Source: the human T2T-CHM13v2.0 reference genome, Homo sapiens. Taken from it: DNA of 64,000 nt. A program made the position numbers and the translations under genes. The stretch lies in the NCBI RefSeq assembly GCF_009914755.1, contig NC_060934.1. One strand, written 5' to 3'. Positions within the stretch are counted from its first letter, which is position 1. The number at the start of each line of letters is the position of its first letter. This document shows positions 42,400 to 47,584 of the stretch, one piece after another. The notes beneath the pieces were generated by a model that saw only the letters and a program-made list of their open reading frames with translations, was not told the DNA's origin and searched no databases.

Positions 42400-42504
42400 A
42401 ACCCGTATTGAGCTATTTCTATGTGTCAGGCACTTTTCTGAGACACTTAAATATAGAAACTAATTTAATCCTGACAATGTCCTTTTAAGAAATGAACTCT
42501 TGTA
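42400..42504 (-). mobile_element. MIR, first part (continues at 47564-47584, 48222-48287 and ~48678-48720)
   Basis: ATGTGTCAGGCAC...TTTAATCCTGACAA, then after the insertions ATCCTCAGTTAACAGATGGGG...GAAATGAAGACACAGAGAGGTTAAGTACCTTGCC, collinear with the MIR core. Confidence 0.75.
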
Positions 42505-42791
42505 TGGGGTGGGACTGTGCAAGGTGGAGCAGCAACAGAGGTGAGGGCTCAGCAGGCAGTCACAGGATAGGGCTGTGGGAGCCAGGCCACTGAGGTTGGG
42601 GCTGACTGAACTCACGGACCTGATACTTTTCTCGAGAAACAAACCAGCTCAAAAGAAAAATGGCATTTGTTGCAACACAAGGAGCCGTGGTGGTTGACCA
42701 AACCACTCTGATGAAAAAGTACCTTCAGTTTGTGGTAGCTCTCACAGATGTAAATATAACTGATGAAACAAAGTTAAAAATCATGCAAGAA
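42505..42791 (+). pseudogene. TRRAP: Processed 5' fragment of TRRAP mRNA (probable CpG-decayed 5'UTR plus first 44 codons), fused to L1
   Basis: ORF at 42660 reads MAFVATQGAVVVDQTTLMKKYLQFVVALTDVNITDETKLKIMQE. The recalled TRRAP N-terminus is MAFVATQGATVVDQTTLMKKYLQFVAALTDVNTPDETKLKMMQE (39/44 identical). Upstream 42505-42659 is G-rich with many TG/CA, as expected for a decayed CpG-rich 5'UTR. Confidence 0.9.
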
Positions 42792-43748
42792 AGTATTTGC
42801 AAGCCTCATGGTGACCTCAAACCAAGAAACATGCAATGGATACACAAAAAATAAAAAGTAAGAAACTAAATCATATCACCAGAGAAAATCATCTTCAGTA
42901 GAAGAAGACAGGAAGGAAAGAAAGAAGAGAAAACCAGAAAACAACCAGAAAGCAAATAACAAAATGGCAGGAGTAAGTCCCTACTTTCAATAATAACACT
43001 GAATGTAAATGGACTAAACTCTCCAATCAAAAGACACAGATTGCTGGAATGGATGTAAAAACAAGACCCATTGATCTACTGCCTGCAAGAAACACACTTC
43101 ACCTATAAAGACACAGACAGACTGAAAATAAAGAGATGGAAAAAGATATTCCATGCCAATGGAAACCAAAAAGAGCAGGAGTCACTATACTTATATCAGA
43201 CAAAAACTATAAGAGACAAAGAAGACCACTATATAATGATAAAGGGGTCAATTTAGCAAGAGGATACAACAATTTAAAATGTATATGCACCCAACACTGG
43301 AGCACCTAAACATATAAAGGAAATATTATTAGAGCTAAAAACAGAGATAGACCCCAATACAATAATAGCTGGAGACTTCAACACCACTTTCAGCATTGGA
43401 CAGATCTTCCAGACAGAAAATCAACAAAGAAAAATCAGACTTAATCTGCACTATAGACCAAATGGATCTAAGAGATATTTACAGAACATTTTATGCAAGA
43501 GCTGCAGAATATACATTCTTTTCCTCAGCACATGGATCATTCTCAAGGATAGACCATATGTTAGGTCACAAAATAAGTCTTAAAGCATTCAAAAAAGTTA
43601 AAATAATATCAAGCATCTACTCTGACCACAATGGAATAAAACTAGAAATTAATAACAAAAGGAATTTTGGAAACTATACAATATATGGAAATTAAACAAT
43701 CTGTTGCTGAATGACCAGTGGGTCAATGAAGAAATTAAGAAGGAAATT

Positions 43749-44110
43749 GGGCCGGGTGTAGTGGCTCACACCTGTAATTCTAGCACTCTGGGAGGCCTAC
43801 GTGGGCCAATTCCTTGAGCTCAGGAGTTCAAGACCAGCCTGGGCAACATGACAAAACCCTGTCACTACAAAAAATACAAAACTTAGCTGGGTGTGATGGC
43901 ACATGCCTGTATTTCCTCCTGTATTCCCAGGGGGCTGAGGTGGGATGTTAAGGTTGCAGTGAGTCGAGATCACACCACCACACTCCAGCCTGGGTGGCAG
44001 AGCCAGACCCTATCTCAAAAAAAAAAAAAAAAAAAAGAAAAGAAAAGAAAAGAAAAGAAAAGAAAAGAAAAAAAGAAAGAAAGGAAAGAGAGAAAGAAAA
44101 AGAAAAAAGG
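43749..44110 (+). mobile_element. Alu (J/S-like, partly deleted) with GAAAA tail, inserted in L1 ORF2
   Basis: GGCCGGGTGTAGTGGCTCAC start and A/GAAAA tail; L1 ORF2 resumes afterwards. Confidence 0.9.
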
Positions 44111-44421
44111 AATGAAAAAACTTCTTGAAACAAATAATAATGGAAAAACAACATAACAAAACCTATGGGATACAGCAAAAGCAATACTAAGAGGGAAGTT
44201 TATAGCTAAAAGTGCCTACATTGAAAAAGAGGAAAAGCTTCAAATGAACAATCTAACAATGCAGCTTCAAAGACTATAAAAGCAAGAGCAAACCAAACCC
44301 AAAATTAGCAGAAGAAAAGAAATCATAAAGATCAGAACACAAATAAATAAAATTGAAATAAAAAAATACAAAAGATCAATGAAACAAAAAGTCGGTTTTT
44401 CAAAAAGTTAAACAAAATTGA

Positions 44422-45936
44422 GACTAGTGAACAATACAGTCAGGATGGCTAAAGATGACCCCACAAAACCAAAGAGCAAGATGTCTGCTTCTGCCTTTTT
44501 GTGTAGACGTGCAGAGAAGAACATAAAAAGAAAAACCCAGAAGTTCCTGTCAATTTTGCAGAATTTTCCAAGAAGTGCTCTGAGGGGTGGAAGACAATGT
44601 ATGGGAAAGAGAAGTCTAAATTTGATGAAATGGCAAAGGTGGATAAAGTGCACTATGATCAGGAAAAGAAGGATTATGGACCAGCTAAGGGAGGCAGGAA
44701 GAAGAAGGATCCTAATGCCCCCAAAATGCCACCGTCTGGATTCTTCCTGTTCTATTCAGAATTCCGCTCCAAGATCAATTCCACAAAACCTAGCATCTCT
44801 ATTGGTGATGCAGAAGAAAAAAAAAAAAAAAAAAAAGCTGAGTGAGATGTAGAGTAACTTAAATGACAGTGAAAAGCAGCCTTACGTCACTCAGGCGGCA
44901 AAGCTGAAGGAGAAGTATGATAAGGATGTTGCCGACTCTAAGTCGAAAGGAAAGTTTGATGGTGCAAAGTGTCCTGCTGAAGTTGCCCGGAAAAAGGTGG
45001 AAGAGGAAGGTGAAGAAGACAAGGAGGGAGAAAAGGAGGAGAAGGAGGAGGATGAATTAAAAAAAAAAAAAAAAAAAAAAAAACCTGTTTATCTGTCTCC
45101 TTGTGAATACCTTAGAGTAGGGGAGGGCCGTAATTGACACATTTCTTATTTGAGAAGTGTCTGTTGCCCTCATTAGGTTTAATTACAAAATTTGATCACG
45201 ATCATATTGTAGTCTCTCAAAGTGCTCTAGAAATTGTCGGTGGTTTACATGAAGTGGCCATGGGTGTCCAGAGCACCCTGAAACTGTATCAAAGTTGTAC
45301 ATATTTCCAAACATTTTTAAAATGAAAAGGCACTCTCATGTTCTCCTCACTCTGTGCACTTTGCGGTTGGTGTGACAAGGCATTTAAAGATGTTTCTGGC
45401 ATTTTTTTTTTTTTAATTTGTAAGGTGGTCTTAACTATATGGTAATTGGCTGGAAACCTAAGTTATCAACTGTATATATCTATAGTTTGTAAAAAGAACA
45501 AAACGACCAAGACAAACTCTTGAAGCTCTTTGCTTGGGGTTGAGGCTGTGGGGAAGTTGCCTTTTGGAAGGGCCATAGCTCAGGGCATGCACTGTGAGGC
45601 TGGACCTGTTGCCTCTGCAGAGGGCATACATTTAGCTTCAGGTTGTCTTGTTTCTGTATATTGTGACACAGCATTCAGTGGCGCGATCTCAGCTCACTGC
45701 AACCTCCACCTCCCAGGTTCAAGTGATTCTCCTGCCTCAGCTTCTGGAGTAGCTGGGACTACTTTTTAAACAAACTGTAGAACTATTCATTATTAGCAAA
45801 GTGAAGAGCCACTGCATCAATGAAAGTTCAAGAACTTTCTGTACTTAAACACGGTTTGAAACGTTGAGTGTTTTGTTTTTTTTTTGTATGTTTGGAATGC
45901 TAAAATGTTTTTGAAGTTAAAGTCTTACATTTTAAA
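44422..45936 (+). pseudogene. HMGB3: HMGB3 processed pseudogene (short 5'UTR, disrupted CDS 44445-~45060, 3'UTR)
   Basis: Peptides [40 protein letters not shown] and an acidic tail. No introns; frameshift and TAG stop. Perfect 20-bp TSD AAAAAGTTAAACAAAATTGA at 44402-44421 and 45937-45956. Confidence 0.95.
45676..45762 (-). mobile_element. Internal Alu fragment without tail or TSD inside the HMGB3 pseudogene 3'UTR
   Basis: CAGTGGCGCGATCTCAGCTCACTGCAACCTCC...GTAGCTGGGACTAC, flanked directly by HMGB 3'UTR sequence. Confidence 0.88.
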
Positions 45937-46233
45937 AAAAAGTTAAACAAAATTGACAAATCTTTAACCAGACTAAGAAACAAAGACAGAAGATACAAAT
46001 AAATAAAATCAGAAATGAAAAAGGAGACATTACAACTGATACTTCAGAAATTTAAAGGATCATTAGTGGCTACTATGAGCAAGTATATGCCAATAAATTG
46101 GAAAATCTAGAATAAATGGACAAATTCCTAGATACATGCAATCTACCAAGATTAAATTGGGAAGAAATCCAAAACCTGAACAGACCAATAACAAGTAACG
46201 AGTTTGAAGCCATAATAAAAAGTCTCCTGTTAA

Positions 46234-46364
46234 CCCATTTATGCCAGAGGTTGCAAATTTTTTGTGTGTGAAAAATCAGACCTTGACAATGACCTTGAGC
46301 AATAGGGTATAAATAACTCCTACAAACATAGCATTCCAATAATGGAACACTAGGCATAAATTGG
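46234..46364 (-). mobile_element. MER85 piggyBac (PGBD3-derived) MITE inserted in L1 ORF2
   Basis: TTAA at 46230-46233, then TIR CCCATTTATGCC; the other end reads GGCATAAATTGG. Internal near-palindrome ATTCCAATAATGGAAC matches the recalled MER85 consensus. Confidence 0.88.
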
Positions 46365-47584
46365 TTGTTGAAGAAAAGCCGGGGACTTGATGTCTTCACT
46401 ACTCAATTCTACCAAATGCTTAAAGAACTAATACTAATCCTCTTCAAAGTATTCATAAAAATAGAGGAGGAGGGAATACTTCCAAACTCATTCTACAAGG
46501 CCAGTATTACCCTGATACCAAAACCAGACACAGACACATTAAAAAAAGAAAAGTACAGGCCAATATTTCTGATGAATATTGACGCAAAACCCTCAGCAAA
46601 ATACTAGTAAACCTAATTCTACAATACATTAGAAAAAAAATCATTCCTCATATCCAAGTGGGATTTATCCCTGGGATGCAACGATGGTTCAACATATGCA
46701 AATTAATCAATGTGATACCTCATATCAACAAAATGAAGGATAAAAACCATACGATCATCTCAATTGATGCTGAAAAAGCATTTGATAAAATTCAGCATCT
46801 CTTCATGATAAAAGCCCTCAGAAAACTGGGGATAGAAGGAACATAGCTCAACATAATAACAGCCATATATGACAGACCCACAGCTAGTCTCATACTGAAT
46901 GGGGATAAACTGAAAGTCTTTCCTCTAAGATCTGGAACATGGATAAAGAAAATGTGGCACATATACATAATGGAGTACTATTCAGCTATTAAATAAGAAT
47001 GAGATCCAGTCATTTGCAACAACATGAATGGAACTGGAGATCATTATGTTAAGTGAAATAAGCTAGGCACAGAAAGACAAACATCACATGTTCTCAGTTA
47101 TTTGTGGTGATGGCATTAGGTGGGGCAAGAAAAAATTTTTTTTTAATTTAAAAAATTAAAATCAAAATGGTAGAACTCATGGACACAGAGAGTAGAAAGA
47201 TGGTTACTGGAGGTTGGGAAGGATAGTGGGGGGCTGAGGGAAGTTGGAGGTGGTTAATGCTACAAAAAAAAAAATAGAAAAAATGAATAAGACCTACAAC
47301 TTGATAGCACAAGAGGGTGACAATAGTCAATAACTTCATTGTACATTTTAAAATCACTTAAAGAATGTAGCTGGATTGTTTGTAACTCAAAGGATAAATG
47401 TTTGAGGGGATAGACACCTCCATGCCCCATGGTGTGCTTATTTCACATTACATGCCTATATCAAAACATCTCATGTACTCCATAAATGTATAAAGCTATT
47501 GTGTACCCACAATAAAATTTTAAACTTTTATAAAAAGAAAAATTTTTAAAAAGAACTATTGTAATCCTCAGTTAACAGATGGGG

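What the first reader, a model, noticed from the sequence alone, without database searches (positions are those of the whole stretch)
42490..47563. Chimeric TRRAP-mRNA/LINE-1 retrocopy inside a single TSD pair
Seen: the first 44 codons of TRRAP (39/44 identical to the recalled N-terminus), plus ~155 bp of G-rich, CpG-decayed leader, run without a poly(A) straight into L1 inter-ORF sequence at ~42791 (CAAGAA|AGTATTTGCAAGCC). The unit is bracketed by AAATGAACTCTTGTA (42490-42504) and AAAAGAACTATTGTA (47549-47563; 13/15 match), and the interrupted MIR resumes beyond them. Established: L1 ORF2p makes bipartite retrocopies, best known for U6/L1. Ordinary truncated processed pseudogenes keep the mRNA 3' end, not the 5' end. 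Inference: RT began on L1 RNA, switched to TRRAP mRNA near codon 44 (possible AAGA/AGT microhomology) and copied toward the cap, capturing the 5' end of a very long mRNA. The TRRAP ATG still opens a 64-codon TRRAP-L1 fusion ORF (42660-42854).
Basis: partly seen in the sequence, partly recalled or inferred. Interest (0 to 1): 0.85.

Follow-up and report, generated by a model that had tools for sequence, protein, structure and literature searches.

The report
TRRAP mRNA start fused to L1
An ancient jumping-gene (L1) insertion on human chromosome 10 carries a spliced copy of the first 290 bases of the TRRAP messenger RNA on its front end, a rare but already described kind of hybrid retrocopy with no sign of function.

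Summary
Window 42505-42791 is a spliced copy of TRRAP exons 1, 2 and the first 32 nt of exon 3. Both exon junctions are exact and there is no intron sequence. It runs without poly(A) into a 5'-truncated sense L1 that begins in the spacer between ORF1 and ORF2. A 15-nt direct repeat (13 of 15) brackets the composite. With one copy removed, the flanks align collinearly to three other copies of one old repeat.

The fusion point lies inside TRRAP exon 3, 19 nt before its splice donor. No placement of the join gives a GT-AG pair. The present TRRAP gene holds no sense L1 of this family. I read this as one L1 retrotransposition event, probability about 0.9. Within it, reverse-transcriptase template switching from L1 RNA to TRRAP mRNA is the most likely mechanism, about 0.6. 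A pre-joined RNA is not excluded, and microhomology support is weak.

mRNA/L1 chimeras are in print (PMC2104539, PMC13174262). This locus was not found there. It is a new member of a known kind, old and decayed. Orthologous loci could not be checked.

The parts
42388..42489 (.). 5' part of the older interspersed repeat (MIR-like; name recalled) that served as target
   Evidence: nhmmer alignment of the reconstructed empty site to three other copies in the window
42490..42504 (+). Target-site duplication, 5' copy (AAATGAACTCTTGTA)
   Evidence: Only 2 matches with at most 2 mismatches in the window, 0.22 expected. It ends where TRRAP homology starts.
42505..42600 (+). Copy of TRRAP exon 1 (5' UTR, CpG-decayed)
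   Evidence: Aligns to C7:100111869-100111969 inside a CpG island and ends at the gene's GT donor. Score 83.5 against shuffles 38.5 +/- 3.6.
42601..42759 (+). Copy of TRRAP exon 2 (rest of the 5' UTR, the ATG at 42660, and codons 1 to 33)
   Evidence: 143 matches, 16 mismatches and 2 gap columns against C7:100114427-100114587
42760..42791 (+). Copy of the first 32 nt of the 51-nt TRRAP exon 3
   Evidence: 30 of 32 identical to C7:100115312-100115343. In the gene the exon continues for 19 nt to GAG|GTATGA.
42787..42794 (+). Junction zone: TRRAP ...CAAGAA, L1 ...TAAGATAGTATTT, window CAAGAAAGTATTT
   Evidence: Alignment of 29 L1 copies. AAGA is shared. 25 of 26 parsed copies have T, and none has A, at the position that is A at 42791.
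42660..42854 (+). 64-codon TRRAP-L1 fusion ORF; no evidence of use
   Evidence: the ORF listing; residues 1-44 match TRRAP
42792..43748 (+). L1: inter-ORF spacer, ORF2 start (ATG at 42965) and endonuclease domain
   Evidence: 85-89% identity to 39 other L1 copies. 43465-43659 matches ORF2p residues 176-240. The equivalent point in copy L011 lies after the ORF1 homology and before the ORF2 ATG.
43749..44110 (+). Later Alu insertion with an A-rich tail, nested in the L1 (approximate ends)
   Evidence: Read from the sequence; matches Alu copies in other loci; direct-repeat family D2 pairs it with the Alu at 47605
44111..44421 (+). L1 ORF2 segment
   Evidence: Read from the sequence; continuity with L1 is inferred
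44422..45936 (+). Later HMGB3 processed pseudogene (HMGB3P5), nested in the L1
   Evidence: Perfect 20-nt repeat at 44402-44421 and 45937-45956 (D10). Exon-by-exon match to C23:149253061-149256236.
45937..46229 (+). L1 ORF2 segment
   Evidence: 46092-46210 matches another L1 copy
46230..46366 (.). Later insertion of a 137-nt short interspersed repeat with inverted ends, next to TTAA
   Evidence: 39 other copies scored at 88-92% identity, from 878 candidates
46367..46940 (+). L1 ORF2 reverse-transcriptase segment
   Evidence: 46422-46592 matches ORF2p residues 486-542. 83-86% identity to 39 L1 copies, all ending at 46935-46949.
46941..47548 (+). L1 ORF2 C-terminal end, 3' UTR and short decayed A-rich tail; joined to the preceding segment across a 1,676-nt internal deletion
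   Evidence: In copy C5:129368801-129371594 the two segments lie 1,676 nt apart. Matches to other copies run to 47541-47548.
47549..47563 (+). Target-site duplication, 3' copy (AAAAGAACTATTGTA)
47564..47577 (.). Continuation of the interrupted old repeat; it resumes again at about 48229-48300 beyond two later Alus

Best explanation
One L1-mediated, target-primed reverse transcription event inserted a bipartite cDNA into an old interspersed repeat.

Proposed sequence of steps (inferred):
- L1 endonuclease nicked the target at the start of AAA(T/A)GAACT.
- Reverse transcription was primed on the poly(A) of an L1 RNA and ran 3' to 5' through the 3' UTR and ORF2 into the inter-ORF spacer.
- About 175 nt upstream of the ORF2 start, the enzyme left the L1 RNA. 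It continued on a spliced TRRAP mRNA, landing inside exon 3 (codon 44), and copied it to or near its 5' end.
- Integration produced a 15-nt target-site duplication.

Shown here: the spliced TRRAP origin, the intra-exon sense join without poly(A), the single repeat pair, and the restored target.

Inferred: that the join arose by template switching during reverse transcription rather than on a pre-joined RNA, and that the copy reaches the true mRNA start.

The insert then decayed. An Alu, an HMGB3 retrocopy and a short DNA-transposon-like repeat landed in it. CpGs of the TRRAP leader were lost. The 64-codon fusion ORF is most likely an accident. The confidence figure given is for the template-switch step. 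Confidence in the single-event chimera is about 0.9.
For: - TRRAP residues 1-44 are matched at 39 of 44, E 9e-18.
- Exons 1, 2 and 3 are collinear with exact junctions, and the gene's GT donors lie at the matching points.
- The fusion point is 19 nt before the exon 3 donor.
- The L1 side is continuous L1 in 29 of 29 aligned copies, so the L1 is truncated at a non-special point in the spacer.
- The two parts have the same orientation and no poly(A) lies between them.
- The 15-nt repeat is 13 of 15 identical and sits exactly at the two independently defined ends; 0.22 chance matches are expected in the whole window.
- The empty site, with one repeat copy, aligns across the join to three other copies of the old repeat.
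- No canonical GT-AG combination reproduces the join. The donor-like GAA|GTTAGT in TRRAP would need an acceptor after L1 ...AAGAT, which is not AG in any of the 29 copies. The L1 AG positions (TATAAG|, GATAG|) would need TRRAP donors that are not GT.
- The 160 kb covering TRRAP from 17 kb upstream of exon 1 to beyond its FATC exon holds only two antisense L1 fragments, at 67-71% identity.
- Genome searches found no other copy of the TRRAP fragment or of the junction.
- The structure meets the published description of template-switch chimeras: sense join, 5'-truncated LINE as the 3' part, flanking direct repeats (PMC2104539, passages read).
Against: - Microhomology is weak. At the most parsimonious join (TRRAP ...CAAGAA | L1 AGTATTT) the strict microhomology is 0. 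The shared AAGA requires a T-to-A change at 42791, and a shared AGT requires one extra A. A shared run of 4 or more within -8..+4 of a join occurs in 3.3% of 200,000 random TRRAP/L1 pairs.
- Folding gave no sign of a pause structure. The 80 nt upstream of the L1 departure point in 26 copies gave mean z 0.06 against shuffles.
- The published family description says 5' parts are full-length RNA copies. Here only about 290 nt of a very long mRNA are present, so the landing was internal.
- The TRRAP side ends exactly in front of a donor-like GTTAGT, which keeps a non-canonical splicing or cleavage origin alive.
- No orthologous locus could be examined, so a single arrival rests on the repeat pair and the restored target alone.
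- The true TRRAP transcription start was not available, so reaching the cap is not shown.
Confidence: 0.6

Rival explanations
1. A chimeric RNA existed before reverse transcription. A TRRAP 5' fragment cut inside exon 3 was ligated to an L1 RNA fragment (RtcB-type ligation, as proposed for U6/L1), or the two were joined by non-canonical or trans-splicing. The joined RNA was then copied in one ordinary TPRT run.
For: - It gives the same sense-to-sense structure inside one repeat pair.
- The TRRAP part ends exactly before GTTAGT, a donor-like hexamer.
- Strict microhomology at the join is 0, as expected for ligation.
- Law and Burns discuss ligation and trans-splicing for L1 chimeras, and found six of 17 mRNA/L1 joins at splice donors (PMC13174262 passages; preprint section read).
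Against: - The join is not at an annotated exon end.
- No L1 copy of the 29 aligned has AG directly before the retained L1 sequence, so no GT-AG pair fits without at least 2 further changes.
- Nothing suggests a defined cleavage site in TRRAP exon 3.
Confidence: 0.27
2. Cis origin: an L1 lay in sense orientation inside the TRRAP gene. A TRRAP transcript was mis-spliced or read through into it, ended at the L1 poly(A) site and was retrotransposed.
For: This route is known for some mRNA/L1 chimeras (PMC13174262, Figure 7 legend).
Against: - The 160 kb spanning the whole human TRRAP gene has no sense L1 of this family, only two antisense fragments of 67-71% identity.
- The join is inside exon 3 with no usable splice pair.
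- An L1 polymorphic in an ancestral population cannot be excluded.
Confidence: 0.03
3. Two or more separate events. One version is a TRRAP retrocopy later split by an L1 with loss of the rest. Another is an L1 insertion whose 5' end later captured a TRRAP cDNA piece during break repair.
For: Nested later insertions are common in this stretch: an Alu, an HMGB3 retrocopy and a short repeat.
Against: - No further TRRAP sequence lies in 42300-48400.
- The 3' repeat copy follows the L1 tail, not a TRRAP poly(A).
- A TRRAP 5' fragment has no poly(A) with which to prime its own insertion.
- No second repeat pair flanks the L1 alone.
- The target repeat is restored exactly by removing the whole composite and one repeat copy.
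Confidence: 0.05

Closest known systems
Chimeric retrogenes formed by LINE reverse-transcriptase template switching (Buzdin, Gogvadze and co-workers; summarised in PMC2104539; U6/L1 is the best-known case)
   Same: - The two RNA copies are joined directly in the same orientation.
- The 3' part is a 5'-truncated L1 cut at a non-special point.
- There is no poly(A) between the parts.
- The whole is flanked by short direct repeats.
   Different: [quoted passage not shown] Here the 5' part is only the first 290 nt or so of a very long mRNA, ending inside exon 3. The original human list (Buzdin et al. 2003, recalled) could not be read, because that paper is not held.
mRNA/lncRNA first-exon plus L1 chimeras ('5' transductions') of Law and Burns, Cell Genomics 2026 (PMC13174262; preprint 10.1101/2025.02.02.635956)
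   Same: First exons of a gene sit in sense orientation upstream of an L1, with a TSD around both and a start at or near the transcript start.
   Different: - Their 17 cases mostly carry near-full-length L1 of more than 5 kb, and six end exactly at splice donors, which led to a trans-splicing proposal.
- Here the L1 lacks its 5' UTR and ORF1, and the join is 19 nt short of the donor.
- The introns next to exon 3 are short. Intron 2 is 724 nt. Intron 3 length was not measured.
- TRRAP, the hg38 neighbourhood 'chr10 1104' and 'chr7 988/989' do not occur in the main text or in the four supplementary files held. Some cells of those files are cut.
Ordinary processed pseudogene, such as HMGB3P5 nested in this same L1
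   Same: It is made by L1 proteins from a spliced mRNA and is flanked by a TSD.
   Different: Ordinary retrocopies keep the mRNA 3' end and poly(A) and are truncated at the 5' end. The TRRAP piece keeps only the 5' end and has no poly(A) of its own.

Membership tests
LINE-mediated chimeric retrogene (template-switch type, features as listed in PMC2104539) | The 5' part is a full-length copy of a cellular RNA | tested here: not met
   Only exons 1, 2 and 32 nt of exon 3 are present. The 5' end may be complete, but the RNA is cut at its 3' side inside exon 3.
LINE-mediated chimeric retrogene (template-switch type, features as listed in PMC2104539) | The 3' part is a 5'-truncated copy, mostly of a LINE, truncated at a non-specific site | tested here: met
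   The L1 begins in the inter-ORF spacer. All 29 other copies continue upstream as L1.
LINE-mediated chimeric retrogene (template-switch type, features as listed in PMC2104539) | Both parts are joined directly in the same transcriptional orientation | tested here: met
   The TRRAP sense strand and the L1 sense strand are both on +, with no poly(A) or filler beyond at most 1 nt.
LINE-mediated chimeric retrogene (template-switch type, features as listed in PMC2104539) | The chimera is flanked by short direct repeats | tested here: met
   A 15-nt repeat, 13 of 15 identical, at the two outer ends; 0.22 chance matches expected in the window. The empty site is restored.
L1 TPRT insertion | A-rich 3' tail, and a target nicked at a TT/AAAA-like site | tested here: inconclusive
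   The tail is short and decayed (ATAAAAAGAAAAATTTTTAAAAAG). The TSD starts with AAAT/AAAA but is preceded by AG, not TT, so the match to the recalled consensus is partial.
Splice-mediated mRNA/L1 chimera (cis- or trans-splicing model of PMC13174262) | The gene part ends at a splice donor and the L1 part starts after a splice acceptor | tested here: not met
   The join is 19 nt before the exon 3 donor. There is no AG directly before the retained L1 sequence in the 29 copies.
Splice-mediated mRNA/L1 chimera (cis- or trans-splicing model of PMC13174262) | For the cis form: a sense L1 inside the donor gene | tested here: not met
   There is none in the 160 kb covering the human TRRAP gene. Ancestral polymorphisms are not testable.
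Single insertion event (any mechanism) | Both parts are present or absent together at orthologous loci | not testable with these tools
   Only the window's own genome and prokaryote genomes are held. No primate or mammal genome was available.

The most novel reading that the evidence does not exclude
The locus records two template jumps in one reverse-transcription run.

- The first is an intramolecular jump that skipped 1,676 nt of ORF2. It shows at 46940/46941 as a join with a short GAAC-like overlap.
- The second is an intermolecular jump from the L1 spacer onto an internal site of the cap-proximal part of TRRAP mRNA.

This would make it a jump-prone TPRT product. It would also be evidence that at least some mRNA-5'-end/L1 chimeras arise by switching inside exons rather than by trans-splicing.
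Probability: 0.15. Interest if true: 0.45.

Novelty: new member of a known kind. Interest (0 to 1): 0.35.

Why it matters
Chimeras of an mRNA 5' end with L1 are few. One recent catalogue lists 17 in hg38 (PMC13174262), and how they form is debated: trans-splicing, ligation or template switching. This locus is a clean example in which the join is inside an exon and no splice pair fits. At least for this case, splicing is unlikely and a reverse-transcriptase switch or RNA ligation is needed. It also suggests that catalogues based on near-full-length L1, or on splice-site ends, may miss such cases. Beyond that it is an old, decayed, single-copy insertion. Nothing points to a present function for the 64-codon ORF.

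Tried and rejected
- **Exon 1 search.** Ordinary short-word BLAST and the genome search did not find TRRAP exon 1. A transition-lenient alignment was needed.
- **Old-repeat copies.** A genome search with the 5' flank found only the locus itself. 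The test was done with nhmmer on sequence already held.
- **Pause-structure idea.** Folding the 80 nt upstream of the L1 departure site in 26 copies gave mean z 0.06, so no support.
- **Microhomology as strong evidence.** Rejected after simulation: strict value 0, and a shared run of 4 or more in 3.3% of random pairs.
- **L1 reference copies.** The two L1 copies first fetched as references were broken or rearranged and of little use for the anatomy. A smaller request, which the tool's message allowed, gave the two 170-180-nt stretches used for the deletion junction.
- **Shared-deletion L1 lineage.** A search across the deletion join found 39 other matches, each covering one side only, among 40 scored of 1,499 candidates.
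- **Translation of the L1 endonuclease region.** Translating it as one piece failed because of 15 stop codons. Single open stretches were used instead.
- **Buzdin et al. 2003** was not held under the PMC id I recalled.
- **L1 subfamily and orthologous loci** could not be addressed.
- **Literature.** Searches for TRRAP with pseudogene/LINE-1/chimeric terms found no paper holding all four terms. None of the 10 papers listed out of 72 mentions TRRAP.

Full report
**What is there**

The translation of 42660-42791 matches residues 1-44 of human TRRAP chains in the Protein Data Bank, with 39 of 44 identical and E 9e-18.

The window's own genome is held. A search with 42505-42800 found only the locus itself and one place on contig 7. 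Local alignment against 40 kb fetched there placed the fragment on three exons.

| Window | TRRAP gene (C7) | Match |
|---|---|---|
| 42601-42759 | 100114427-100114587 (exon 2) | 143 matches, 16 mismatches, 2 gap columns |
| 42760-42791 | 100115312-100115343 (start of exon 3) | 30 of 32 |
| 42506-42600 | 100111869-100111969 (exon 1) | 64 matches, 28 mismatches (14 CpG-to-TpG/CpA type), 12 gap columns |

- In the gene, exon 2 is preceded by ...TTTTCATAG and followed by GTGAGT. Exon 3 is preceded by ...GTTCACAG.
- The G-rich leader was missed by ordinary searches.
- With a scoring that tolerates transitions, it aligns inside a CpG island and ends exactly at GAGGTCGGG|GTAAGT.
- The score is 83.5, against 38.5 +/- 3.6 (largest 51.5) for 100 shuffled queries.
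- The 287 nt are therefore a spliced copy of TRRAP exons 1, 2 and part of exon 3, with both junctions exact and no intron sequence.

**The join**

Exon 3 of the gene is 51 nt long and ends at AATTTTGAG|GTATGA. The copy stops after 32 nt, which is 19 nt before that donor.

On the other side, 39 other L1 copies match 42786-43060 at 85-89%. In an alignment of 29 of them, all continue upstream as L1. The three readings at the join are:

- L1: ...GGGTTATAAGATAGTATTTGCAAGCC
- TRRAP: ...ATGATGCAAGAAGTTAGTG
- Window: ...ATCATGCAAGAAAGTATTTGCAAGCC

The simplest parse is TRRAP through CAAGAA (42791) and L1 from AGTATTT (42792). Strict microhomology is then 0. The four bases AAGA are shared one base from the join. 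Of 26 L1 copies that could be parsed (of the 29), 25 have T, one has C and none has A at the position that is A in the window. Among 200,000 random TRRAP/L1 position pairs, 3.3% show a shared run of four or more this close to the join. Microhomology is therefore suggestive at most.

No placement of the join gives a GT donor together with an AG acceptor:

- The donor-like GAA|GTTAGT in TRRAP would need an acceptor after L1 ...AAGAT.
- The two L1 AG positions would need TRRAP donors that are not GT.

**Where the L1 starts, and what it holds**

- Positions 43465-43659 match human ORF2p residues 176-240. This puts the ORF2 start at about 42940-42965, and an ATG lies at 42965.
- In copy L011 the ORF1 homology ends about 190 nt before the point equivalent to the join. 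The ORF2 ATG follows about 180 nt after that point.
- Positions 46422-46592 match ORF2p residues 486-542.
- All 39 other copies scored stop matching at 46935-46949.
- The stretch 46942-47548 matches L1 3' ends at 74-83%, up to 47541-47548.
- One copy (C5:129368801-129371594) carries both segments 1,676 nt apart. The window's L1 therefore has an internal deletion of that size, with a short GAAC-like overlap at the join.
- In a search across that deletion join, none of the 39 other matches scored (of 1,499 candidates) spans it.

**One insertion**

- AAATGAACTCTTGTA (42490-42504) ends where TRRAP homology starts.
- AAAAGAACTATTGTA (47549-47563) starts where the L1 A-rich tail ends.
- These are the only two matches with at most two mismatches in 64 kb on both strands. 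0.22 are expected, and 1 of 100 shuffles reached two.
- I joined, in a script, the 5' flank with one repeat copy, the 14 nt that follow the second copy, and the sequence beyond two later Alus.
- The result aligns collinearly, across the join, with three other copies of an old repeat in the window at E 1e-5 to 3e-4, and with a fourth weak match at E 0.31. From memory this repeat is MIR.
- No further TRRAP sequence lies between 42300 and 48400.
- The junction occurs nowhere else in the genome among the matches scored.

**Origin of the join**

I fetched 160 kb covering TRRAP from 17 kb upstream of exon 1 to beyond its last coding exon. The end of the gene was confirmed by a FATC domain match at C7:100245582-100245665. 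That stretch holds no sense L1 of this family, only two antisense fragments of 67-71% identity.

A cis read-through or cis-splicing origin from the present gene is therefore unlikely. Splicing of any kind fits the join poorly.

What remains is a switch of the reverse transcriptase from L1 RNA to TRRAP mRNA, or an RNA joined beforehand by ligation. I favour switching, at about 0.6, for two reasons:

- The structure matches the published class in four of five listed features.
- The copy runs to the start of the first exon.

The evidence does not exclude ligation. Folding gave no sign of a pause structure upstream of the departure point (mean z 0.06 in 26 copies).

**Age**

- Exons 2 and 3 are 173 of 191 identical to the gene, about 9% divergence.
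- The L1 was later hit by three insertions.
  - An Alu at about 43749-44110.
  - An HMGB3 retrocopy at 44422-45936, with a perfect 20-nt duplication (family D10). Its coding exons are 82-92% identical to the X-linked gene.
  - A 137-nt repeat at 46230-46366 with inverted ends next to TTAA, 88-92% identical to 39 other copies scored.
- By inference from primate neutral rates (recalled), the chimera is tens of millions of years old.
- No orthologous genome was available to test this.

**Comparison with what is known**

- Gogvadze and co-workers list the features of LINE-made chimeric retrogenes in mammals and fungi (PMC2104539, passages read).
- Law and Burns catalogue L1 chimeras in hg38, including 17 with mRNA or lncRNA first exons. 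These mostly sit on near-full-length L1, and six end at splice donors. They propose cis- or trans-splicing (preprint section 24 read in full; passages of the journal version PMC13174262).
- TRRAP and this chromosomal neighbourhood do not occur in their main text or in the four supplementary files held. Some cells of those files are cut.
- Two library searches found no paper on a TRRAP retrocopy. No paper holds all four terms, and none of the 10 papers listed of 72 mentions TRRAP.
- The original human list of Buzdin et al. 2003 (recalled) could not be read, so prior listing there is not excluded.

**Verdict**

The locus is a new example of a known kind. Its small added value is that the join lies inside an exon on a strongly truncated L1, which argues against splicing for this case. 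The 64-codon ORF has nothing in its favour beyond being open.

Noticed in passing
window 44402-45956: The HMGB3 processed pseudogene is longer than the annotated HMGB3P5 span (44421..45221). A perfect 20-nt duplication AAAAAGTTAAACAAAATTGA at 44402-44421 and 45937-45956 brackets 1,515 nt. These match the X-linked gene exon by exon through its last exon and 3' UTR (C23:149253061-149256236).
   Followed up: partly
window 46940/46941: The L1 has a 1,676-nt internal deletion of ORF2 relative to copy C5:129368801-129371594, with a short GAAC-like overlap at the join. It was not seen in the other copies scored. It could be a jump during reverse transcription or a later genomic deletion.
   Followed up: partly
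window 46230-46366: A 137-nt short repeat with inverted ends (CCCATTTATGCC ... GGCATAAATTGG) next to TTAA is inserted in L1 ORF2. The genome search gave 878 candidates, and the 39 other copies scored are 88-92% identical. From memory it resembles the piggyBac-derived MER85 family; no tool named it.
   Followed up: partly
window 45672-45765: An Alu-like fragment of about 90 nt lies inside the HMGB3 retrocopy. It matches separately, in both orientations, near other HMGB3-like loci (query 1255-1341). The match to the parent gene's last exon spans it, so it may belong to the HMGB3 3' UTR.
   Followed up: no
window 42772-42791 and L1 copies (e.g. C5:120700355-120700426): TRRAP exon 3 just upstream of the join (GTTGAAAATGATG..CAAGAA) resembles the L1 spacer just upstream of its departure point (GTTAAAATAATGGGTTATAAGAT). 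A few L1 copies therefore align 10-15 nt into the TRRAP-derived side at 82-88%. Whether this is chance or played a part in the join is unknown.
   Followed up: no
window 47577-48228: Two Alu elements in tandem orientation were inserted into the old repeat just downstream of the 3' target-site duplication. The old repeat resumes at about 48229.
   Followed up: no
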